This document shows positions 128 through 9,140 of a stretch of DNA of 13,291 bases, one piece after another. How positions within the stretch are numbered: the stretch's first letter is position 1; every line of letters starts with the position of its first letter. The stretch comes from an uncultured archaeon (GTDB lineage: Archaea; Iainarchaeota; Iainarchaeia; Iainarchaeales; 0-14-0-20-30-16), in the NCBI GenBank assembly GCA_964565125.1, contig CAZMCX010000013.1:1-13291 (forward strand), written 5' to 3'. A program made the translations under genes and the position numbers. The notes beneath the pieces are model-generated. The model saw only the letters and a list, made by a program, of their open reading frames with translations. It ran no database searches and had not been told where the DNA came from.

Positions 128-1663
128 ATGCAGACCGATATATCTACATCTCTAAACCTTGATGCTACTGTTGGGGTTGTTATCCAATATGCACAGAAAA
201 AAGATGTAATTATCGATAAGGATGCGGCTATTTTTCTATCAAAGCAGGAAGACTATAAGACAGTAATAGACTCGGCTTTTAAAGATAAAGTTCCGTTTTT
301 AGACTTAAAAAAGGCAGAGGAAATTTTACAGAAATTGAGTTCTAGTGTTGAGATTGTATTTGAAAAAAAAGCAGATATTTCTAATCTGGAAGTTGTTGTT
401 GAAAATCGGGCGAAAAGAAGAGAGGCAAAAGAATATACTTCCAAGATGAAAATAATAAAAGATACAGATATAACAAACAATACAACTGGACAAGGAAAAG
501 TTACTGATTTTGTAGAATTTGTGAGAGATAGATATAATATTTTATCTGGGTTGATAAAAAAACACAACAACTTTTCTCCGGTGCAGTCAAGCGGGATAAA
601 ATATTCTGCAAAGGGGGTAGAAGTAGATGTAATTGGAATGGTATATGAAAAAAGAGACACAAAAACCGGAAATTTAATGGTCATTTTTGATGACAATAAT
701 GGTTTTTTTACCGCAATTTTTGATAAGAATAAACCAATTTATGCGCAGGCAAGAAAACTTTTGAATGATGATGTTGTGGGCATAAAAGGAGTAAAATTAG
801 ATGAAAAATTAATTTATGCTTCTGAGATAATTTTTCCAGATATGCCTGTTGCAACACCAAAAAAAAGTGATATTGATTTGGATATTGTTTTTACTTCTGA
901 TGCTCATATTGGAAGCAATGTTTTTTTTGAAAAAGAATTTAATAATTTTATTGATTGGCTTGACAAAGGGGAAGATAGTAGTAAAATAAAGTATTGTGTT
1001 ATTGCGGGAGACGGGGTTGACGGGATAGGTGTTTATCCAGGCCAAGACGAAGAATTGGCAGTAAAAGATATTTACAAGCAATACGAAATTTTGTCTAATT
1101 ATATTGAAAGAATTCCTGAGCATATAGAAACTTTTATTATTCCTGGAAACCATGATGCCGTGAGGAGGGCAGATCCCCAACCAGCAATACCAAAAGAATA
1201 TTTAAAAAAATTATACGGTCTGAAAAATGTGCATGTTTTAGGATCTCCTTCTATGGTGGAAATTGAGGGCTTAAAAATGTTAATGTATCATGGAAATTCG
1301 ATGAATGAATTACAGGCAAAGTTGGGAATCCATTTTGAGGATCCAATTCCAGTAATGGAAGCCTATCTCTTGAGAAGAGATGTTTGTACAATATATGGTG
1401 GAAAAAATCCAGTATCTCCGGATAAGGGGGGTGTTCTGCAAATAAAAGAAGAACCAGATATTTTTGTTACAGGTCATTTACATTCAAATGGTTATGGGAC
1501 TTATAAAAAAACAATGTTGATAAACCCTGGTGCTTGGCAGGCACAAACATCGTTCCAGAAACAACAAGGCCACATTCCGACTCCGGGAAGAGTGCCAGTA
1601 ATGAATATGAAAACAGGAAAAATATTGGAGAAGGTGTTCATAAATGAAGTTGCCAATATGTGA
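128..1663 (+). CDS. polB: DNA polymerase II (PolD) small subunit DP1, the Mre11-like 3'-5' exonuclease subunit
   Basis: 511-aa ORF with the full calcineurin-like phosphoesterase motif set in DP1 order: VFTSDAHIGS, VIAGDGVDG, IIPGNHD, MYHGNS, VTGHLH. It sits directly upstream of the DP2 gene and overlaps it by 20 nt, the typical archaeal polB-polC operon arrangement. Stop codon is TGA at 1661-1663. Confidence 0.93.
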   Translation: MQTDISTSLNLDATVGVVIQYAQKKDVIIDKDAAIFLSKQEDYKTVIDSAFKDKVPFLDLKKAEEILQKLSSSVEIVFEKKADISNLEVVVENRAKRREAKEYTSKMKIIKDTDITNNTTGQGKVTDFVEFVRDRYNILSGLIKKHNNFSPVQSSGIKYSAKGVEVDVIGMVYEKRDTKTGNLMVIFDDNNGFFTAIFDKNKPIYAQARKLLNDDVVGIKGVKLDEKLIYASEIIFPDMPVATPKKSDIDLDIVFTSDAHIGSNVFFEKEFNNFIDWLDKGEDSSKIKYCVIAGDGVDGIGVYPGQDEELAVKDIYKQYEILSNYIERIPEHIETFIIPGNHDAVRRADPQPAIPKEYLKKLYGLKNVHVLGSPSMVEIEGLKMLMYHGNSMNELQAKLGIHFEDPIPVMEAYLLRRDVCTIYGGKNPVSPDKGGVLQIKEEPDIFVTGHLHSNGYGTYKKTMLINPGAWQAQTSFQKQQGHIPTPGRVPVMNMKTGKILEKVFINEVANM

Positions 1664-4600
1664 TCCAGAAACAAAAAAATATTTTGAAAGAATAGTAATT
1701 GATGTGGATTCCATGTATTCTTTGGCAACAGATATTAGAAAATTGGGTTATGATATTAAAGATGAAGTTGAAATAAAGAGGGCAACAAACCTGGCGGAAA
1801 GAACAGAAGCAATTTTGGAATTGCCCGGTCTTGCAAAAAGATATGAAGAAATAATGGCAGTAAAAAAAGATAGGTTTCCAACAATAATACAAATTTTTGA
1901 CGAAATACTAGATAGTAAATTTGGAAGTTTTCCAACAGATGAAAAAAGATTAGAAGCAGCAGTAAGAACCGCATTAACCTTGTACACAGAGGGGGTTGTT
2001 GTTGCACCTTTGGAGGGAATTCCTGCAATAAAAATAAGTTCTAATTCAGATTCTACAAAATACGTAGACATATTTTATGCCGGCCCAATAAGAGCCGCAG
2101 GTGGAACTGGAACAGTTTTACCAATTGTATTAGCATATTATGGCGGCAAAAAATTAGGTTTGGATAGATATAAAGCAACAGAATCAGAAATAGAACGTTA
2201 TGTTGAAGAATACAGAATTATTGGACGAAAATATGCGCGGCAGATAAAAGTTACAGAAGAAGAGATTAGGCACATTATTAGAGAATGCCCTGTTTGTGTA
2301 AACGGAGAAGCAACAGATCCGGAAGAAGTTGATGTTTATAGAAATCTTGAAAGAGTTCCAACAAATAGATTGAGGGGCGGAGCATTTTTAGTATTGACGG
2401 AGGGTGTAACTCTTAAAGCTGCGAAATTAAAAAAAATTGCAAAAGGATTTGGATTTGATTGGGGCTGGCTTGATAAATTTATTAAAGTAAAAGAAACCGG
2501 AAATACTACAGAAATTTTGCCGAATTACAGATATTTAGAAGGTGCAGCAGCAGGAAGGCCAGTGTTCTCATATCCATCTAGATTTGGCGGTTTTAGATTA
2601 AGATATGGGCGAACAAGAACAACTGGATTAATGGCCAAGGCCTTGCATCCGACTACTATGTATGTTCTTGGAGGTTATGCTGCAGTGGGTACTCAGTTAA
2701 AAGTTGAGAGGCCGGGTAAAGCAGCAGTAATTGGAGCTTGTGATTTAATAGAGCCATCTTATGTTAAACTTAGAGATAAATCTATTGTTAGGGCTGAATC
2801 AAAAGAATGGTATGAAAGTAATCAAATTAATGTTGAAAAAATTTTATTTGTTGGAGATATGTTAATTTCTTATGGTGATTTTAGAAAAACAGCACACCCT
2901 TTGATGCCGCCGGGATATTGTGAAGAATGGTGGGCCTTAGAATTGGAAAAAGAACTTGAAAATAAAAAACTTGGAAAAAAAGAATTTGAAAGTTTTTTGG
3001 ATAATCCTTATGTGGTAAAAGAAGAAGACGCAGTAAAGTTGTCAGATAGTTTTGGGGTTCCATTACACCCAAGATATTTGTATTTCTATACTCAATTAAA
3101 TCAAGAAGATATAATTTATATTAGAAATGCATTACAAAAAGCAGAAAGGAAATATTCTGATGGAATTGAGTTTGATGCAGTATTAGATTATGATGAAAAA
3201 CTTGATTTCTTGTTTACAAAAATTGTAATGCCAATGAAAGTAGAAAATGAAAAAATAATAATAAAACACGGTCTCTCCCTGTTTAAAACTTTTGGTGTTT
3301 TTGACTTGGAAAAAGAAGTTCCAGTTGGTCTTGAACCATTGGATTTATTGTGTTATTTATCTGGTCTTAAAATCAGAGATAAAGCCGGGTCCTTTATCGG
3401 CGCAAGAATGGGTAGGCCTGAAGCAGCAACAGAAAGAAAAATGACTGGGAGTCCACAAGTTTTGTTTCCTATTGGAAAGATGGGTGGAAACACAAGAAGT
3501 ATTAATAAGGCGGTTGATTTTAAATCACAGGAAAGTAAGGGTTTATTTGATTCCAAAGCAGCATCAACTGTAGAAATTGCGTTTTATAAATGTCCTAGAT
3601 GTAAAAAAGAAATTGTGTATCCTTATTGTTGGGAATGTAAAGAAAGAACTGTAAGGCAATATTATTGTAGTTCTTGTAATAAAAGTTATGATGAAAGAAA
3701 AGAAAAATGTACCTGTGGTGGAAAAATATACCATTCTAAAAGATCAAGTTTGTCTTTTGCAAACATATTCAGAGATGCAGTAAAAAGGCTTGGTGTTGAG
3801 GCCCCCGCAATGATAAAAGGTGTTGAGGGGCTAGTGTCAATAGATAAAGTTGCAGAACCCCTAGAAAAAGGAATTTTGAGAGCAAAAAACGGAGTTTATG
3901 TTTTTAAAGATGGGGTTTGTAGAACTGATTTATTAGACTTTAATTTGAGTCATTTTAAACCGGTAGAGTTGAAAATGACAGTTGAAAAAGCAAGAGCTTT
4001 GGGATATGAGCTAGATATTTATGGAAACGAACTTAAAGATGAGAATCAAATGTTAAGGTTATTTCCACAAGATGTTATTTTGAATACTACAGTTGGTGAC
4101 TATTTAGTAAAAGTTGCAACATTTGTAGATGACTTATTAGAAAAGTTTTACAAAAAGCCAAAATTTTACAATGCAAAAGTAAGAGATGATTTAATTGGGC
4201 ATTATATTCTTGCATTAGCGCCACACATTGTTGCGGGAATTGTTGGAAGAGTAATAGGATATAGTGAATCGAGAGTAATGTTTTCACATCCTTATTTTAA
4301 TACTGCAAAAAGAAGAAACTGTTTAACTTTCGATACACCCATAGTTTTAAGTAATAATAAAAATATTTGCTTAATGGAAATCGGTGCCCTTGATGATGGT
4401 TCACATAAAACCGAAATCCCTCTTGAAAATACGTATACTTATTCTGTTGATTCGCGGGGCAAGTTACATAAAAGAAAAGTAATTGCATTATATAAACAGA
4501 AAAATAAAGAAAAAATATTAAAATTGAAAACGAGATTTGGGAGAGAAGTAAAAGTAACTCCTAAACAAAAAATTCTTTATGGAGAAAATGGACTTGTAAA

Positions 4601-6500
4601 ATATAAATTTGCAAAAGACTTGAAAATTGGTGATAATTTATTATCTTTGGCTAATGCAAAATACACAAAAAATAATGAATTAAATATCTTGGAATATTAT
4701 TTACAATCACCCCTAAAGCAAAAAATAAGAGTCCACAACATAAAAAAATTATTAAAACCAAAATTAAAAAAAGATGGCTATGTAAATATCGGAAATAAGT
4801 TAGGAATAAATTGGAAGAAGCTACATACTGCAATTGATTTTGATGCAGTCCCTTTGGATCTTTATGAAAAATTACGTAAACAGTATAAAATTGCGGATGA
4901 TGGTCTGGAGCTATCTTATAATAAACAAAAAAGCAGGATTCCTTGTATAATTGGATTAACTAAAGAACTTGGATGGATTGTTGGATATTATCTGGCGGAT
5001 GGACATGCCCGAACTAGTTATGGAAAATCTAAAGATATAAAGAAATATGTTTATCAAGTAAATTTTGTGTCTGCAGAAAAAGAAATAACTAATAAATTAA
5101 TGAAAATAACTAAAAAACTGTTTAATAGAAATTTAACAAAGAGTAAGCAAAAAAGTGTGGATGATTTATATCTGAGTGGAAGAGTATATTATGATTTATT
5201 TGTGAATATTTTACAAACAGGCAAATGCGCAAGAAATAAAAGGGTCCCCCAAATAATAACTAACTCTAATTCAGAGTGTATTAAAGGTTGTATTGGCGGT
5301 TATGTTGTGGGCGATGGGCATATAGAAAAAACAAGTATTAAGGCAATAAGCGTAAATAAAAATCTAATAAATGAATTTGCATATTTGTGCGCTACTCAAA
5401 ATTTGTTTGCTCACGTTTTTGAAGAAAAAGAAAGAACAATAAAAACCGGCTTAGTAAAAGAATATTACCAAAAAAGAAATAAGTCTATAACTGTAAAATC
5501 ATATGGGTTTAAGTTATATTCCAAAGATTTTAAGGAAATGGTTCAGTACTTGTTTGGATCTAAATTTAAAAAAGCAATACAAAATCTGAAAAGTATTGAA
5601 ATAAAGAAAAAAAGAGTAAGTAAGTTAGGAAATTTTATTATTGATAAATTAGTAAGTATTAAGGAAGTTCCTTATAATGGAAAATATGTATATGACCTAA
5701 TTGTAGAAAAAGAAAAGACCTTTATTGGAGGTTATGGTAATTTGGGGATTTATGATTGTGATGGGGATCAGGATTCTGCAATGCTTTTATTAGATGTATT
5801 TTTAAATTTTTCAAAAGATTATTTACCATCAACAAGAGGCGGAAAACAAGACACCCCGCTTGTTGCTACAATTGTTTTAGATCCACAAGAAATAGATGAT
5901 GAAGCGTATGAAATGGAAACTACATCTAAATATACTTTAGAATTTTACGAATCTGCATTAAAAAAAGCAGAACCCGTATTGAAGTTTTTGAATATTGTTG
6001 GAAATTTTATTGGAACCGATAAACAATTTACAGAATTAAAATTCACACACGATACTATCCAATATGATGCGGGCCCAAAGCAATCTAGTTATACTTTAAT
6101 AAAAGAGATGAAAGATAAAATTTCAAATCAGCTTGACTTGCAATATAAAATAACTGCGGTAGACCACATGGCTGCATTAGAATTAGTTTTATCTACACAT
6201 TTTTTGCCAGATATTATTGGAAATGCAAGAAAATATGCTAGACAAGGCTTTAGGTGTACAAAATGTAACAAGAAATTTAGGCGTATGCCTTTGTTGGGGT
6301 CTTGCTCATGTGGTGGAAACATAAATCTGACAATAGCACAAGGCTCAGTAAGAAAGTATTTGGGGCTTACAGACGGTATTTCAAAGAAATACAAACTTAC
6401 TGATTATTTAGACCAAAGAATAAAATTGATTTACAAAGAAGTTGATTCTTTGTTTAATAATGAGAAAATAAAACAAAAGTCTTTAGGAGACTTTATGTGA
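1644..6500 (+). CDS. polC: DNA polymerase II (PolD) large catalytic subunit DP2, containing an intein
   Basis: 1618-aa ORF with DP2 signature blocks: YAGPIRAAGGTG, GRPVFSYPSRFGGFRLRYGRTR, GARMGRPE, LEKGILRAKNGVYVFKDG, FVDDLLEKFY, LAPHIVAGIVGRVIG, HPYFNTAKRRN...CDGDQDSAMLLLD. It has Cys-cluster zinc modules (CPRCKK...CWEC...CSSC...CTCGG and the C-terminal CTKCNKKFRR...CSCGG). AAGGTG at 1631-1636 lies 7 nt before the ATG at 1644. The extein is 1139 aa after intein removal, a normal DP2 size. Confidence 0.95.
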   Translation: MKLPICDPETKKYFERIVIDVDSMYSLATDIRKLGYDIKDEVEIKRATNLAERTEAILELPGLAKRYEEIMAVKKDRFPTIIQIFDEILDSKFGSFPTDEKRLEAAVRTALTLYTEGVVVAPLEGIPAIKISSNSDSTKYVDIFYAGPIRAAGGTGTVLPIVLAYYGGKKLGLDRYKATESEIERYVEEYRIIGRKYARQIKVTEEEIRHIIRECPVCVNGEATDPEEVDVYRNLERVPTNRLRGGAFLVLTEGVTLKAAKLKKIAKGFGFDWGWLDKFIKVKETGNTTEILPNYRYLEGAAAGRPVFSYPSRFGGFRLRYGRTRTTGLMAKALHPTTMYVLGGYAAVGTQLKVERPGKAAVIGACDLIEPSYVKLRDKSIVRAESKEWYESNQINVEKILFVGDMLISYGDFRKTAHPLMPPGYCEEWWALELEKELENKKLGKKEFESFLDNPYVVKEEDAVKLSDSFGVPLHPRYLYFYTQLNQEDIIYIRNALQKAERKYSDGIEFDAVLDYDEKLDFLFTKIVMPMKVENEKIIIKHGLSLFKTFGVFDLEKEVPVGLEPLDLLCYLSGLKIRDKAGSFIGARMGRPEAATERKMTGSPQVLFPIGKMGGNTRSINKAVDFKSQESKGLFDSKAASTVEIAFYKCPRCKKEIVYPYCWECKERTVRQYYCSSCNKSYDERKEKCTCGGKIYHSKRSSLSFANIFRDAVKRLGVEAPAMIKGVEGLVSIDKVAEPLEKGILRAKNGVYVFKDGVCRTDLLDFNLSHFKPVELKMTVEKARALGYELDIYGNELKDENQMLRLFPQDVILNTTVGDYLVKVATFVDDLLEKFYKKPKFYNAKVRDDLIGHYILALAPHIVAGIVGRVIGYSESRVMFSHPYFNTAKRRNCLTFDTPIVLSNNKNICLMEIGALDDGSHKTEIPLENTYTYSVDSRGKLHKRKVIALYKQKNKEKILKLKTRFGREVKVTPKQKILYGENGLVKYKFAKDLKIGDNLLSLANAKYTKNNELNILEYYLQSPLKQKIRVHNIKKLLKPKLKKDGYVNIGNKLGINWKKLHTAIDFDAVPLDLYEKLRKQYKIADDGLELSYNKQKSRIPCIIGLTKELGWIVGYYLADGHARTSYGKSKDIKKYVYQVNFVSAEKEITNKLMKITKKLFNRNLTKSKQKSVDDLYLSGRVYYDLFVNILQTGKCARNKRVPQIITNSNSECIKGCIGGYVVGDGHIEKTSIKAISVNKNLINEFAYLCATQNLFAHVFEEKERTIKTGLVKEYYQKRNKSITVKSYGFKLYSKDFKEMVQYLFGSKFKKAIQNLKSIEIKKKRVSKLGNFIIDKLVSIKEVPYNGKYVYDLIVEKEKTFIGGYGNLGIYDCDGDQDSAMLLLDVFLNFSKDYLPSTRGGKQDTPLVATIVLDPQEIDDEAYEMETTSKYTLEFYESALKKAEPVLKFLNIVGNFIGTDKQFTELKFTHDTIQYDAGPKQSSYTLIKEMKDKISNQLDLQYKITAVDHMAALELVLSTHFLPDIIGNARKYARQGFRCTKCNKKFRRMPLLGSCSCGGNINLTIAQGSVRKYLGLTDGISKKYKLTDYLDQRIKLIYKEVDSLFNNEKIKQKSLGDFM
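4320..5756 (+). mobile_element. Intein with a LAGLIDADG homing-endonuclease domain, inserted in the DP2 catalytic motif (aa 893-1371 of the ORF, 479 aa)
   Basis: Junctions read KRRN|CLTFDTPIVL...GNLGIYD|CDGDQD, and excising 4320-5756 restores the contiguous RRN-CDGD motif. Block A is CLTFDTPIVL. Block B-like is GREVKVTPKQKIL. The two LAGLIDADG motifs are LGWIVGYYLADGHA (4968-5009) and IKGCIGGYVVGDGHIE (5280-5327). Block F/G-like is YVYDLIVEKEKTFIGGYGNLGIYD, followed by the +1 Cys. Confidence 0.88.
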
Positions 6501-6552: not shown

Positions 6553-7497
6553 ATGAAGAATGCGTTTCTAATAGTTCTGATTAGTTTTATTGTTTTGATA
6601 ATTATTGTTTTTGGACTTGTTTATTTTATGGGCTTAAAAGACGATCCAACAACGACCCCCAAAGATACTAACAAAGTAAATGAAGTATTTGTAGAAATTT
6701 TGCAAGGTGACGTTTACTATAAAAATTTAGAAACAAAAAATGAATACCTTTTACTTGAAAAAAACCAATATCTCGATGAGAATACCTGGGTTAAAACAGA
6801 TTTAAATAGTAAAGCACAGCTTAATTTTGGAGAAGGGATTTATGCAGTTTTATCAGAAAATACTGAAGTTTTGATAAAAGAATTTTTTGAAAAAGACGGT
6901 CTAAAAACAATTGAATTGGAGCAAACATCTGGAAGTATTTGGCATAGAATAATGAAAATATTTGGAAACGCAGATTATTCTGTTGAAGTCGGAGAGGTTA
7001 TTGCAAGCGTGAGGGGCACAGGGTTCTTTACAGAAATTGATAATAATAATTCAACTGTATCCGTACATGATGGAAATGTAGAGGTATTGGCCGGAGAAAA
7101 AAGATATTATGTGACCTCAGGTTATAAAGTACAGATTAATAGAAATTTAAAGAAAGCATCAACGGTTGTTGATAATGTGGATGTAACAAAAATAATTAAT
7201 AATAGCAAGAAAAATGACGACCCCTTATACAATAAAGATGGAGTTAAAGTAACTAATCTTGGATCTGGCGGATTTATTGATGATAGTTTGGCTATTGATG
7301 ATTCTATTGTTGAAAAGAAAAAAGAAAAACTAAAAAAAGAATATGCTGTCCAAATCGGTATTGCAAAAAGTGCATCTTCTGATGTTACGGATAACATAAT
7401 TGATGAATATTTGGATATTGCAGTAAAAGAGGGGGAAGAAAAAGCAAAGCAGACGATAGAAGAGCAAGGAATTGATATTGGCAAGTATTTTAATTAG
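6553..7497 (+). CDS. Membrane-anchored FecR-domain protein (putative extracytoplasmic sensor or partner)
   Basis: 314 aa. It has an N-terminal hydrophobic anchor, AFLIVLISFIVLIIIVFGLVYFMGL. A FecR-like beta-rich domain pattern follows: AQLNFGEGIYAVLSENTEVLI...SIWHRI...YSVEVGEVIASVRGTGFFTEID...STVSVHDGNVEVLAG. The C-terminal region is charged and coiled-coil-like (KKKEKLKKEY...EGEEKAKQTIEEQ). GGTGG lies 4 nt upstream of the ATG. The stop TAG (7495-7497) abuts the next gene. Confidence 0.7.
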   Translation: MKNAFLIVLISFIVLIIIVFGLVYFMGLKDDPTTTPKDTNKVNEVFVEILQGDVYYKNLETKNEYLLLEKNQYLDENTWVKTDLNSKAQLNFGEGIYAVLSENTEVLIKEFFEKDGLKTIELEQTSGSIWHRIMKIFGNADYSVEVGEVIASVRGTGFFTEIDNNNSTVSVHDGNVEVLAGEKRYYVTSGYKVQINRNLKKASTVVDNVDVTKIINNSKKNDDPLYNKDGVKVTNLGSGGFIDDSLAIDDSIVEKKKEKLKKEYAVQIGIAKSASSDVTDNIIDEYLDIAVKEGEEKAKQTIEEQGIDIGKYFN

Positions 7498-7517
7498 TGG
7501 TAAACGAGGTGTTATTT

Positions 7518-9140
7518 GTGAAAGAAAAAAGAATAGTATTTATCACGGGATTTTTAGTTGCCCTAATTATTGTGTGTGCCTTTGTTGGAGTAAGATTATT
7601 TTCTTATGTTGATAATTTAGTTACTGATCAGTTTTATTATGTTTCTGGAAATAACGATAACATAGTGCTTGTGCTTATTGGTGATGAAACAATTGCAAAG
7701 TTGGGGGCTTGGCCAATAGATAGAGAAAATTATTCTAAATTTTTAGATAAAATAAATGCAAAAATAATTGGTATTGACATTTCTTTTTTTGACCAGACGA
7801 CAAAAGATGATTTAATAAAAAATTCTATGAAAGACAAAAATGTTGTACTGGCGTCTGAGCTTAGTAATGACCTAAAAACAGAAACAGCCCCAATATTTGG
7901 AATAAATTACGGATACGTGAATGTTCCAGTAGAGAAAGATGGTGTTAGCAGAAAAATAATTGAAACAAAGTATACAAATTTTGCAAAAAAGGTATGTGAA
8001 CTTTACACAAACGATTTATGTAAAGAAACTGGAACATATTTAAATTTTTCTTATATACAAAACAACTTTAAAACTTACAAATTTGAAGATATTGTATTAT
8101 CTAATAAAGAATACGATTTTGGAAAAAAGATTGTATTGCTTGGTTCAAATGTGAAAAATTTGCATGACTATGTTAATACCCCATTACAAAAAGAAATGCA
8201 GGGGGTAGTTTATCAAGCAAATTATATCGAAAACTATTTGCAAAAGAACTTTTTGAATAATTATTTCTATCTTGTGTTTTTGTTTTGTGTATTTTTAGTT
8301 ATAATTACATTTTTAGTTGGATATTTTATTGGTTCTAAGTGGTCTATTTTATTAATTGTCTGCTTGTTCTTATTATGTGTTGTTTTATCGCTTGTATTGT
8401 TTAATTATCTAATAATTTTTAGTTTATTTTATCCTCTTATTTCATTATTAGTTTCTGGAATAGTGTTTTATTTAACAGAATACCAATTTAGGGGCATAGA
8501 AAAAAGAGGGATTACAAATTTATTTAGCAAATATGTTTCAAAAAATGTTGTTAATCATATGCTGAAAGATCCAAAAAAATATACAAATTATAATTCTGAA
8601 AGAAAAAGAGTAACTGTATTATTTGGAGATATTAGGGGGTTCACAAAAATGTCCTCTCAAATGGATTCAGAAGATGTAATGCATACTCTAAACGCGTATC
8701 TTAATGAAATGACGGAAATTATTTTCAAACATGGTGGAACTGTAGACAAATATGTTGGCGATGAAATAATGGCAGTATTTAATTCTCCAACAGAAGTTAA
8801 AGACCATGAAAGAAAAGCATTTGAATGTGCTAAAGAAATGTTGGCGCATGTTGCAAAAGTAAATAAGCAAACCAGAAAGAAGCTAAACTATGGTATTGGA
8901 ATAAATTCGGGTTATGTTGTTGCAGGAAGCTTTGGTTCTAAGCATCGTTTGGAATATGGGGTTTTAGGGGATACGGTAAACTTGGCATCCCGTTTTTGTA
9001 GTGTAGCACAAGGTAATGAAATTGTTATTGGCAAAGGAACATATGATGGCCTAAGAATAGTTGATAGAATTGGGCTCGAAGAAAGAGAATATGATCTAAA
9101 AGGAAAAGGATATATCACTGCACATGTTTGGAAAAAATAA
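7518..9140 (+). CDS. CHASE2 sensor domain / transmembrane / class III adenylate (or guanylate) cyclase
   Basis: N-terminal TM segment (ITGFLVALIIVCAFVGV). CHASE2 hallmark IVLVLIGDETIAKLGAWPIDRENYSKFLDKI...IIGIDISFFD. About three TM helices (YFYLVFLFCVFLVIITFLVGYF...ILLIVCLFLLCVVLSLVLF...LISLLVSGIVFYL). The class III cyclase core follows: RVTVLFGDIRGFT, DKYVGDEIMAVF, GINSGYVVAGSFGS, GVLGDTVNLASRF. I prefer the GTG start at 7518 because GAGGTG (7506-7511) lies 6 nt upstream. The ORF-track start, GTG at 7497 overlapping the upstream TAG, is the alternative. Confidence 0.88.
   Translation: MKEKRIVFITGFLVALIIVCAFVGVRLFSYVDNLVTDQFYYVSGNNDNIVLVLIGDETIAKLGAWPIDRENYSKFLDKINAKIIGIDISFFDQTTKDDLIKNSMKDKNVVLASELSNDLKTETAPIFGINYGYVNVPVEKDGVSRKIIETKYTNFAKKVCELYTNDLCKETGTYLNFSYIQNNFKTYKFEDIVLSNKEYDFGKKIVLLGSNVKNLHDYVNTPLQKEMQGVVYQANYIENYLQKNFLNNYFYLVFLFCVFLVIITFLVGYFIGSKWSILLIVCLFLLCVVLSLVLFNYLIIFSLFYPLISLLVSGIVFYLTEYQFRGIEKRGITNLFSKYVSKNVVNHMLKDPKKYTNYNSERKRVTVLFGDIRGFTKMSSQMDSEDVMHTLNAYLNEMTEIIFKHGGTVDKYVGDEIMAVFNSPTEVKDHERKAFECAKEMLAHVAKVNKQTRKKLNYGIGINSGYVVAGSFGSKHRLEYGVLGDTVNLASRFCSVAQGNEIVIGKGTYDGLRIVDRIGLEEREYDLKGKGYITAHVWKK

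What the first reader, a model, noticed from the sequence alone, without database searches (positions are those of the whole stretch)
4320..5756. PolD catalytic-site intein lacking the canonical His/His/His-Asn splicing residues (ends in Tyr-Asp; block B reads TPKQ)
Seen in sequence: a 479-aa insertion splits HPYFNTAKRRN|CDGDQDSAMLLLD, the acidic catalytic motif of DP2. It starts with Cys (CLTFDTPIVL) and is followed by Cys+1, as expected for an intein. The positions that normally drive splicing are all atypical. The terminal dipeptide is Y-D rather than H-N (5751-5756). The block B TxxH motif reads T-P-K-Q, with Gln at 4566-4568, inside an otherwise textbook GREVKVTPKQKIL...LKIGDNLL context. 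The block F position usually held by His appears to be Lys/Thr (EKEKTFIGG). Both LAGLIDADG motifs keep their acidic residues (LADG, VGDG), so the homing endonuclease may still be active. Established knowledge, from memory: PolD is the essential replicase in most archaea that encode it. PolII/DP2 inteins are known in Pyrococcus, and one ends in Gln. Inteins ending in Asp or Gln, and one lacking the block B His (Tko CDC21-1), have been shown to splice by compensatory mechanisms. Inference: if this is the only polC copy, this intein must splice with three or four simultaneous departures from consensus. That would make it either an unusual mechanistic variant or a conditionally splicing regulator of replication.
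Basis: partly seen in the sequence, partly recalled or inferred. Interest (0 to 1): 0.72.

Follow-up and report, generated by a model that had tools for sequence, protein, structure and literature searches.

The report
PolD intein with no catalytic histidines
A self-splicing protein insert in the catalytic loop of an archaeal replicative DNA polymerase lacks all three usual catalytic histidines and ends in aspartate, yet evolves like a working element, so it probably splices by an uncommon chemical route.

Summary
Window 4320-5756 encodes a 479-aa intein (HINT splicing domain plus LAGLIDADG endonuclease). It sits in PolD DP2 at KRRN|CDGDQD, the site used by the Pyrococcus PolII inteins. It has Cys1 and Cys+1, block B reads T-P-K-Q, Lys occupies the block F His position, and it ends in Tyr-Asp.

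The context changes the interpretation. The block F Lys and the [Y/F/I]-Asp terminus are an invariant signature of a whole clade. I found 33 distinct DP2 inteins of this type in DPANN, Asgard and Archaeoglobales assemblies. Only the block B His-to-Gln change, with Asn/Asp-to-Lys next to it, is lineage-specific. It is shared with one sister lineage (L003, 51% identity, bootstrap 91.5%).

It is not decaying. Five assemblies of the window lineage and two of the sister keep every key residue. In the sister lineage intein dN/dS is 0.12, against 0.03-0.06 for the extein. The window's extein shows 20 synonymous substitutions against 4 changed codons.

Best reading: an active class-1-type intein whose splicing core has no conserved histidine. 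Splicing was not tested and a second polC was not excluded. It is a new variant of a known kind.

The parts
128..1663 (+). PolD small subunit DP1 gene, overlapping the start of DP2 by 20 nt (operon partner)
   Evidence: ORF list. Pfam DNA_pol_E_B and Metallophos. The same arrangement occurs in L001, L041 and L003.
1644..6500 (+). PolD large subunit DP2 precursor gene (1618 aa including the intein; 1139 aa of extein)
   Evidence: Pfam PolC_DP2_N (289 bits), central (360 bits) and catalytic (365 bits, split in two by the insert). Extein substitutions against strain L041 are 20 synonymous against 4 changed codons.
1644..4319 (+). N-extein, ending ...HPYFNTAKRRN
   Evidence: It has the same end as the P. 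abyssi/P. horikoshii N-extein.
4320..5756 (+). Intein, 479 aa (Cys1 ... Tyr478-Asp479)
   Evidence: AF2 model pLDDT 89, pTM 0.89. Foldseek best match is PI-PkoII 2cw7 at E 9e-30, followed by the TliVMA intein, PI-PfuI and PI-SceI.
4320..4694 (+). N-terminal half of the HINT splicing domain (residues 1-125; blocks A and B)
   Evidence: TIGR01445 covers intein residues 1-86. Beta-strands span residues 7-110 in the model.
4557..4571 (+). Block B turn T80-P-K82-Q83-K84: Thr B:7 is kept, His B:10 is replaced by Gln (CAA, 4566-4568), and B:9 is Lys
   Evidence: Every other clade member reads T-x-[DNYQ]-H. Only the window lineage and L003/L042 read K-Q.
4695..5624 (+). Linker/DNA-binding region plus LAGLIDADG homing endonuclease domain (residues about 126-435). 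Motif 1 is at 4971-5006 (Asp227 at 4998-5000) and motif 2 at 5295-5324 (Asp332 at 5313-5315).
   Evidence: Pfam LAGLIDADG_3. Foldseek matches to I-DmoI and PI-PkoII. dN/dS is 0.124 for the equivalent region in L003 vs L042. This region is absent from the mini-intein relatives P0144 and L038.
5688..5723 (+). Block F, VYDLIVEKEKTF: Asp459 (F:4) is kept and Lys466 occupies the usual His position
   Evidence: V457, Y458, D459 and K466 are invariant in alignment A1.
5736..5756 (+). Block G, GNLGIYD: penultimate Tyr478 and terminal Asp479 (5751-5756)
   Evidence: Asp is invariant and the penultimate residue is Y, F or I across the clade.
5757..6500 (+). C-extein, starting with Cys+1 and the catalytic loop CDGDQD (5757-5774)
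   Evidence: The two Asp of C-D-G-D correspond to the catalytic D956/D958 of P. abyssi DP2, whose catalytic loop is a known intein site.

Best explanation
Window 4320-5756 encodes a full-length, mobile, class-1-type intein: a HINT splicing domain with a nested LAGLIDADG homing endonuclease. It is inserted in the catalytic loop of the PolD large subunit of a 'Candidatus Diapherotrites' (DPANN) archaeon, at the classical PolII/DP2 intein site.

It belongs to a widespread clade of DP2 inteins for which I found no published description. This clade has replaced the canonical C-terminal catalytic set (block F His, penultimate His, terminal Asn) with Lys, Tyr/Phe/Ile and Asp. Within the clade, this lineage and one sister lineage have also replaced the block B His10 with Gln, with Lys appearing at B:9. 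As a result, the splicing core has no conserved histidine.

The intein most likely still splices by the standard four steps.
1. N-S acyl shift at Asn(-1)-Cys1. Thr80 (B:7) and Asp459 (F:4) assist. The Gln83 amide and/or the Lys82/Lys84 ammonium groups take over oxyanion stabilisation and leaving-group protonation from the missing imidazole.
2. Trans-thioesterification to Cys+1.
3. Release of the intein by attack of the terminal Asp479 carboxylate on its own peptide carbonyl, giving a cyclic anhydride. Lys466 and Tyr478 position or protonate. A carboxylate needs no general base, which would explain why the two His are dispensable.
4. Spontaneous S-N shift, which restores ...KRRNCDGDQD....

Shown: the anatomy, clade membership, conservation and purifying selection. 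Inferred: that it splices, and which residues compensate.
For: Identity and fold:
- Pfam and TIGR intein models match.
- HMMER alignments to solved inteins confirm the block assignments.
- The AF2 model has pLDDT 89, and Foldseek matches PI-PkoII at E 9e-30.
- The site is the same as for the Pab/Pho PolII inteins, inside the DP2 catalytic loop.

Clade signature:
- 33 distinct DP2 inteins end in [Y/F/I]-D, and all have Lys at the block F His position. They come from Iainarchaeia, Micrarchaeota, Undinarchaeota, Woesearchaeota, Asgard and Archaeoglobales assemblies.
- C1, T80, D459, K466 and D479 are invariant in alignment A1.
- Members with degenerate or deleted endonucleases (P0009/L017, P0044, P0144, L038) still keep the splicing residues.

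The K-Q variant is inherited and stable:
- It occurs in the window lineage and in L003/L042 only.
- The two group together with 91.5% bootstrap support even with the two block B columns removed.
- Their exteins are only 44-50% identical.

Selection:
- For L003 vs L042, dN/dS is 0.122 for the intein (N-splicing part 0.108, endonuclease part 0.124, C-splicing part 0.154). The exteins give 0.059 and 0.033.
- For the window vs L041, the extein has 20 synonymous substitutions against 4 changed codons.

Precedent:
- C-terminal Asp and Gln are accepted cyclising residues.
- Tko CDC21-1 splices without block B His by using a Lys.
- In the allelic Pab PolII intein the block B His is reported as important but not essential.
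Against: - No splicing assay exists for this or, to my knowledge, any member of the clade.
- The dN/dS test was possible only in the sister K-Q lineage. The window lineage has just 3 intein substitutions, 2 of them non-synonymous.
- The whole genome could not be searched for a second polC or for polB.
- Block B His is described as the most conserved intein residue, and one of the two previously known inteins lacking it is dead.
- Lys at the block F position also occurs in His-Asn-ending relatives (P0015, P0049). It is therefore not specifically tied to the terminal Asp.
- The compensating roles proposed for Lys82, Gln83 and Lys466 rest on covariation only.
Confidence: 0.78

Rival explanations
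1. Conditional or slow splicer. The intein is active, but its unusual residues make splicing depend on a signal such as pH, redox state (a Cys1-Cys+1 disulfide as in Pab PolII) or temperature. Maturation of PolD, and therefore replication, would be gated post-translationally.
For: - Cys1 and Cys+1 flank the intein as in Pab PolII, where a disulfide and temperature control splicing.
- Gln-ending PolII inteins splice slowly.
- An Asp nucleophile and Lys helpers would be intrinsically pH-sensitive (inference).
Against: - No data bear on regulation.
- The Lys/Tyr/Asp set is invariant across many phyla and habitats. That pattern looks like a general catalytic solution rather than a lineage-specific switch.
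- Conservation is equally well explained by a simple need to splice.
Confidence: 0.15
2. Dead or decaying intein. Loss of block B His inactivated splicing, so this DP2 is a non-functional copy and replication relies on a second polC or on PolB.
For: [quoted passage not shown]
- A second polC could not be excluded.
Against: - The 1618-aa ORF is intact and all DP2 domains are present, unlike Arth_1007, whose exteins total 66 aa.
- The extein is under strong purifying selection in both K-Q lineages.
- Intein dN/dS is 0.12, including the N-terminal splicing part.
- All other catalytic residues are retained across 49% divergence.
- DP1 is co-encoded in an overlapping operon.
Confidence: 0.05
3. Domesticated, non-excised insertion. 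The 479 aa stay in mature DP2 as an extra domain.
For: None directly. It would explain tolerance of atypical splicing residues.
Against: - The insertion lies directly before the two catalytic Asp, in the catalytic loop of the double-psi beta-barrel.
- The splice-junction residues (Cys1, Asp479, Cys+1, Thr80, Asp459) are invariant, which would be unnecessary without splicing.
- Mini-intein relatives lacking the whole middle domain keep the same junction chemistry.
Confidence: 0.02

Closest known systems
Pyrococcus abyssi / P. horikoshii PolII (DP2) inteins
   Same: Identical insertion point (…AAKRRN | CDGDED…), Cys1 and Cys+1, and a non-Asn C-terminus (Gln). The block B His is reported as important but not essential in Pab PolII.
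   Different: They are mini-inteins of 166-185 aa without an endonuclease. They keep His at B:10, at block F and at the penultimate position, and they end in Gln. They did not appear among sequence matches to solved structures at E<=1, so they are allelic but not close relatives.
Carboxydothermus hydrogenoformans RIR1 intein (Amitai, Dassa & Pietrokovski 2004, J Biol Chem 279:3121; content from memory, reference listed)
   Same: The native C-terminal Asp supports splicing. From memory, Asp-to-Asn abolished splicing, meaning the Asp is co-adapted. That matches the strict Asp conservation seen here.
   Different: It is bacterial, sits in ribonucleotide reductase at a different site, and was described as a single case rather than a clade. 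Its block B, F and G:6 residues were not compared here.
Thermococcus kodakaraensis CDC21-1 intein orthologs
   Same: A functional intein family that naturally lacks block B His10 and compensates with a basic residue.
   Different: The host is MCM/CDC21. The compensating Lys58 lies outside the motifs, 23 residues after B:10. The equivalent position here is Asn106 in the window and Arg in L003. Here the candidate compensator is Lys at B:9 next to Gln at B:10, and the C-terminal catalytic residues are also non-canonical.
PI-PkoII (2cw7), TliVMA intein, PI-PfuI and PI-SceI structures
   Same: Same overall architecture of HINT domain plus LAGLIDADG endonuclease (Foldseek E 9e-30 to 1e-12; phmmer E 2.9e-14). 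PI-PkoII also lacks the block F His (it reads DNENF).
   Different: Sequence identity is 9-16%, and they sit in other host proteins and sites.
Arthrobacter FB24 Arth_1007 intein
   Same: Lacks block B His10.
   Different: It is a proven pseudogene. Its exteins total 66 aa, it does not splice, and reversion does not rescue it. Here the host gene is complete and under selection.
RTX/FrpC self-processing module (Asp-Pro cleavage via an aspartyl anhydride)
   Same: A chemical precedent for protein-catalysed backbone cleavage by an Asp side chain forming a cyclic anhydride (abstract, PMC7078468).
   Different: It is an unrelated fold, is Ca2+-dependent, and performs no splicing.

Membership tests
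Intein (HINT splicing domain), class 1 | In-frame insertion at a conserved site of a host protein, whose removal restores the conserved host motif | tested here: met
   Removing residues 893-1371 gives ...AKRRN-CDGDQD..., the DP2 catalytic loop.
Intein (HINT splicing domain), class 1 | N-terminal nucleophile (Cys/Ser1) and +1 nucleophile (Cys/Ser/Thr) | tested here: met
   Cys1 at 4320-4322 and Cys+1 at 5757-5759.
Intein (HINT splicing domain), class 1 | Match to curated splicing-domain profiles | tested here: met
   PF14890 scores 46-49 bits against a cut-off of 35.8. TIGR01445 scores 41.7 bits against a cut-off of 24.5. The C-terminal model TIGR01443 is not matched.
Intein (HINT splicing domain), class 1 | Block B Thr7 and His10 | tested here: not met
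   Thr80 is present, but position 10 is Gln83. The feature is catalytic rather than definitional, since Tko CDC21-1 is an accepted intein without it.
Intein (HINT splicing domain), class 1 | Block F Asp4 and the block F His | tested here: not met
   Asp459 is present, but Lys466 occupies the His position. This position is described as less conserved.
Intein (HINT splicing domain), class 1 | Block G penultimate His and terminal Asn | tested here: not met
   The terminus is Tyr478-Asp479. Asp, Gln and non-His penultimate residues are accepted variants.
Intein (HINT splicing domain), class 1 | HINT fold with nested LAGLIDADG endonuclease | tested here: met
   AF2 pLDDT 89 and pTM 0.89. Foldseek top matches are intein-endonucleases. 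Both LAGLIDADG acidic residues are present.
Intein (HINT splicing domain), class 1 | Actual protein splicing (excision plus extein ligation) | not testable with these tools
   Only indirect evidence is available: purifying selection on the extein and intein.
DP2 (PolII) catalytic-loop allelic inteins | Insertion between Asn and Cys of KRRN|CDGD | tested here: met
   Same flanks as Pab/Pho PolII and as about 75 other DP2 inteins in the sample.
Asp-terminated DP2 intein clade (defined here) | [Y/F/I]-Asp terminus, Lys at the block F His position, and the ..AG.G.L.. block G context | tested here: met
   The window matches all three features. 33 distinct members were found. The window nests inside the clade in the NJ tree.
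Tko CDC21-1-type His-less inteins | Conserved compensating Lys 23 residues after B:10, with MCM as host | tested here: not met
   The position is Asn106 in the window and Arg in L003, and the host is DP2. The window resembles this family in principle but is not a member.
Class 3 inteins | WCT triplet (Trp B:12, Cys F:4, Thr G:5) and no N-terminal nucleophile | tested here: not met
   B:12 is Ile85, F:4 is Asp459, G:5 is Ile477, and Cys1 is present.

The most novel reading that the evidence does not exclude
The K-Q sub-clade (the window lineage plus L003/L042) is a natural, actively splicing intein whose HINT active site uses no histidine at all. The N-S acyl shift would be driven by a Thr/Gln/Lys/Asp constellation. 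C-terminal cleavage would be driven by an Asp carboxylate forming an anhydride, with Lys/Tyr assistance. That would amount to a distinct catalytic sub-class of class 1 inteins, operating in the replicative polymerase.
Probability: 0.5. Interest if true: 0.7.

Novelty: new variant of a known kind. Interest (0 to 1): 0.6.

Why it matters
Block B His10 is described as the most conserved residue among all inteins. Reviews up to 2020 list only two inteins without it, one of them dead.

Here a His-less block B is combined with loss of the other two catalytic His and of the terminal Asn. The host is probably an essential gene, and there is measurable purifying selection.

If splicing is confirmed, this gives three things:
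- A natural test bed for histidine-independent N-S acyl shift and for Asp-anhydride-mediated C-terminal cleavage.
- A ready-made comparison series. His-containing and Gln-containing relatives, and full-length and mini versions, all sit at the same extein site.
- Possibly pH-tunable or metal-insensitive inteins for protein engineering.

It also shows that Asp-terminated inteins are a sizeable, phylogenetically broad clade rather than isolated curiosities.

Tried and rejected
Searches that gave little or nothing:
- Word-indexed protein searches with the whole intein and with its N-terminal 125 aa returned one partial hit and nothing. The exhaustive HMMER search was what worked.
- A metagenome scan with the window+L003 alignment found no relatives. 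The clade alignment then gave 15 loci, none with K-Q.
- Literature searches for Asp-ending PolII inteins, inteins in DPANN, and the Carboxydothermus intein found no description of this clade.
- The Pab PolII mutational paper (Du et al. 2011) is not held. The statement about its block B His is therefore second-hand.

Ideas considered and rejected:
- A hidden His through different block boundaries. There is no His in the last 50 residues and no conserved His in residues 1-125.
- An assembly or sequencing error at CAA. Seven independent assemblies across two lineages agree.
- A class 3 mechanism. There is no WCT triplet.
- Tko CDC21-1-style compensation. The equivalent Lys is absent.
- A strict Lys(F)-Asp(G:7) coupling. 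His-Asn-ending relatives also carry the Lys.

Limitations:
- The AF2 model's coordinates are not exposed, so active-site distances could not be measured.
- dN/dS for the window lineage itself is uninformative, with only 3 intein substitutions.
Full report
**1. What is in the window**

The window (about 30% GC) carries an overlapping DP1-DP2 operon (128-1663 and 1644-6500). Downstream lie a FecR-like gene, a CHASE2-cyclase gene, an AAA_14/DUF4143 ATPase and CysRS.

The 1618-aa DP2 matches all three Pfam DP2 domains at 289-365 bits. The catalytic domain is split in two by an insert that matches Intein_splicing and LAGLIDADG_3.

The same protein is found in an ENA contig (L001). Close variants occur in another ENA sample (L041, 99.16% nt identity), in a further ENA protein (P0155), and in an NCBI MAG named 'Candidatus Diapherotrites archaeon' (PIU02841.1/PIU02641.1). 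The host is therefore a DPANN archaeon.

**2. Checking the observation**

- KRRN|C at 4319/4320.
- T-P-K-Q-K at 4557-4571, with Gln83 (CAA) at 4566-4568.
- VYDLIVEKEKTF at 5688-5723.
- Y-D at 5751-5756.
- CDGDQD from 5757.
- Both LAGLIDADG motifs keep their Asp.

Independent alignments fix the block assignments.
- phmmer against solved inteins pairs 'VTPKQKIL' with 'VTPTHPFF' (Pho CDC21-1), 'VTPSHPVL' (Pho RadA) and 'ITSGHSLF' (PI-PkoII). It pairs 'VEKEKTFI' with 'VPEHHNFI'.
- TIGR01445 (N-terminal splicing region) is matched well above its cut-off. The C-terminal model TIGR01443 is not matched.
- An AlphaFold model built with nine clade sequences is confident (pLDDT 89, pTM 0.89). Its best structural matches are intein-endonucleases: PI-PkoII at E 9e-30, then TliVMA, PI-PfuI and PI-SceI.
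- No alternative His exists. There is none in the last 50 residues. H29 and H50 are not conserved in the sister lineage, whose HINT core has no His at all.

**3. The insertion site is classical**

The P. abyssi and P. horikoshii PolII inteins have the same flanks (…HAAKRRN | CDGDED…) and end in Gln. The DP2 structure paper notes that the catalytic loop carrying the two essential Asp (D956/D958) is an intein site. DP2 is the second most intein-rich archaeal protein, with 80 inteins counted.

**4. A clade with the same odd C-terminal chemistry**

An exhaustive HMMER search of 1.84 billion representatives gave 1049 hits, many of them DP2 proteins with an intein at about residue 900. Parsing the junctions, plus scans of GTDB genomes and JGI metagenomes with a clade alignment (A1), yielded 33 distinct DP2 inteins ending in Asp.

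All of them share three features:
- A penultimate Tyr, Phe or Ile.
- Lys at the block F His position.
- A '..AG.G.L..' block G context.

Hosts include Iainarchaeia/Diapherotrites, Micrarchaeota, Undinarchaeota, Woesearchaeota, Asgard archaea (including the closed Atabeyarchaeia chromosome CP147779.1) and Archaeoglobales.

In alignment A1 the invariant positions include C1, T80, V457-Y458-D459, K466 and D479. Members whose endonuclease motifs have decayed (P0009/L017, P0044) or been deleted (P0144 at 170 aa, L038 at 196 aa) still keep these residues. That is the pattern expected when splicing, not homing, is the indispensable function.

Other inteins at the same site end in x-Asn (mostly with a block F His), x-Gln or, unexpectedly, x-Arg. 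Three His-Asn-ending relatives (P0015, P0029, P0049) share the clade's block F/G architecture, and two of them carry the Lys. The Lys is therefore not strictly coupled to the Asp.

**5. The block B Gln is the derived, rare part**

Every other clade member reads T-x-[D/N/Y/Q]-H in block B. Only the window lineage (T-P-K-Q-K) and L003 (T-G-K-Q-K) have Gln at B:10. L003 is GenBank JBBSVU010000023.1, and its Logan variant is L042.

The two lineages are sisters in an NJ tree. Bootstrap support is 91.5% after removing the two block B columns. Their inteins are 51% identical. Their exteins are only 44-50% identical, and L003's extein is no closer to the window than those of other Iainarchaeia-like loci. 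The K-Q state is therefore old, or it was transferred between distant hosts. Either way it has been maintained.

Sub-clade-specific substitutions in the splicing domain are few: V8I, N/D82K (B:9), H83Q (B:10), L85I, S99K and I436L. The acidic/amide-to-Lys switch next to the lost His is the obvious candidate for compensation.

**6. Is it alive?**

- Integrity. The ORFs are intact (1618, 1624 and 1628 aa) in seven assemblies.
- Window vs L041. The DP2 gene has 31 nt differences. The extein has 20 synonymous changes against 4 changed codons. The intein has 1 synonymous and 2 non-synonymous changes, too few to judge.
- L003 vs L042 (Nei-Gojobori):

| Region | dN/dS |
|---|---|
| N-extein | 0.059 |
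| C-extein | 0.033 |
| Intein, whole | 0.122 |
| Intein, N-terminal splicing part | 0.108 |
| Intein, endonuclease part | 0.124 |
| Intein, C-terminal splicing part | 0.154 |

A decaying intein in a dispensable gene would approach a ratio of 1. This contrasts with the Arth_1007 intein, the literature's His-less pseudogene, whose exteins total 66 aa. Because the insert sits immediately before the catalytic Asp residues, a functional DP2 implies excision.

**7. Mechanism**

Established knowledge:
- Thr B:7, His B:10 and Asp F:4 promote step 1. The block F His and the penultimate His promote Asn cyclisation. About 5% of active inteins lack the penultimate His. Asp and Gln can replace Asn.
- Tko CDC21-1 orthologs lack His B:10 and use Lys58 instead.
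- In Pab PolII, at this very site, the block B His is reported as important but not essential.

Inference for this intein:
- Steps 1 and 2 proceed as in class 1 inteins, using Cys1, Thr80 and Asp459. Gln83 hydrogen-bonds to the scissile amide or the oxyanion. A neighbouring Lys (82 or 84) supplies the charge or the proton.
- Step 3 is attack of the Asp479 carboxylate on its own carbonyl to give an anhydride. This chemistry has a protein precedent in the RTX self-processing module. A carboxylate does not need a base to be activated, which rationalises the loss of both His. Lys466 and Tyr478 may orient the carboxylate or protonate the leaving amine.

None of these residue roles has been tested.

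**8. Comparison and novelty**

This is an intein, allelic to the Pyrococcus PolII inteins. It is structurally nearest to PI-PkoII-type intein-endonucleases. It fails the canonical His and Asn features but passes the definitional ones (see the membership table).

It works like Tko CDC21-1 in doing without His B:10, but it is not a member of that family: the host differs, and the equivalent compensating Lys is absent. It works like the Chy RIR1 intein in using Asp. That comparison rests on my memory of Amitai et al. 2004, whose reference is listed.

I found no description of the [Y/F/I]-Asp DP2 clade or of a histidine-free intein core in the searchable literature. Absence from that library is not proof of absence elsewhere.

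One finding tempers the surprise. Among 198 intein N-domains in the top hits, 40 lack His at B:10, and 39 of those sit in RNA polymerase largest-subunit inteins. Loss of this His therefore recurs in environmental data far more often than the reviews suggest.

**9. Verdict**

The most likely reading is an active, atypical class-1 intein (confidence about 0.78). It belongs to a broad Asp-terminated clade and to a small Gln-for-His sub-clade. It is a new variant of a known kind. Interest is 0.6.

Noticed in passing
Proteins P0035, P0043, P0055, P0067, P0078, P0112, P0121, P0143; no window coordinates: Eight distinct DP2 inteins at the same KRRN|C...|CDGD site appear to end in Arg (…NQLLQIR|CDGDED, …EQIINTR|C). 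They have Cys at block F position 4, a normal TxxH block B, and Cys1. When aligned with Gln-ending relatives, the Arg falls on the terminal Gln/Asn position. A terminal Arg cannot cyclise in the usual way.
   Followed up: partly
Proteins P0011, P0018, P0025-27, P0032, P0042, P0052, P0063, P0070, P0080, P0145 and others: 39 intein N-domains lack His at block B position 10. They sit in multi-intein RNA polymerase largest-subunit proteins (Rpb1 domains 3-7) at two sites. One reads 'ATKAKSFL' (Lys at B:10), and that intein seems to start with Ser. The other reads 'V[TAV]xS[KQE]SLL'. Loss of this His looks recurrent in environmental inteins.
   Followed up: partly
window 4320-5756 vs 1644-4319 and 5757-6500; L003 vs L042: The intein is less diverged than its flanking extein at silent sites in both strain pairs. 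For the window vs L041, differences are 3 of 1437 nt against 28 of 3420 nt (Fisher p=0.016). For L003 vs L042, dS is 0.41 against 0.65-0.82 (chi-square p=2e-4). This could reflect recent homing or gene conversion of the intein, or codon-composition effects.
   Followed up: partly
window 5757-5774; L003 and L042 C-extein start: The DP2 catalytic loop reads CDGDQD in the window and most Iainarchaeia-like loci, and CDGEQD in L003/L042. The usual sequence is CDGDED.
   Followed up: no
L020 (JACRDJ010000039.1), L038 (OBEQ011446911.1), P0144; L017/P0009, P0044: The Asp-terminated clade shows several stages of the intein life cycle. There are full-length members with intact LAGLIDADG motifs, members with degenerate motifs, and mini-inteins of 170-283 aa. 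One mini-intein (L020) has a stop codon in the translated stretch.
   Followed up: partly
L023 (Candidatus Falkowbacteria bin), L008 (Thaumarchaeota bin); also L022 (Dojkabacteria bin) and L025 (Saccharibacteria bin): L023 and L008 are archaeal PolD contigs with an Asp-ending intein, yet they sit in bins labelled as CPR bacteria or Thaumarchaeota, so they are probably mis-binned. L022 and L025 gave only weak intein matches (E 1e-11 and 1e-6) with no DP2 junction detected, so their host is unclear.
   Followed up: no
window 6553-9140: Directly downstream of polD lies a FecR-domain gene (6553-7497). Its stop overlaps the start of a CHASE2-sensor adenylate/guanylate cyclase gene (7497-9140). This is an unusual signalling pair for a DPANN archaeon. 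It is conserved in strain L041.
   Followed up: no
P0015, P0029, P0049: These His-Asn-ending DP2 inteins share the clade's block F/G architecture (YVYD..LEKG..K.FAAG.G.LL.HN). They may represent the ancestral state from which the Tyr-Asp terminus arose.
   Followed up: no
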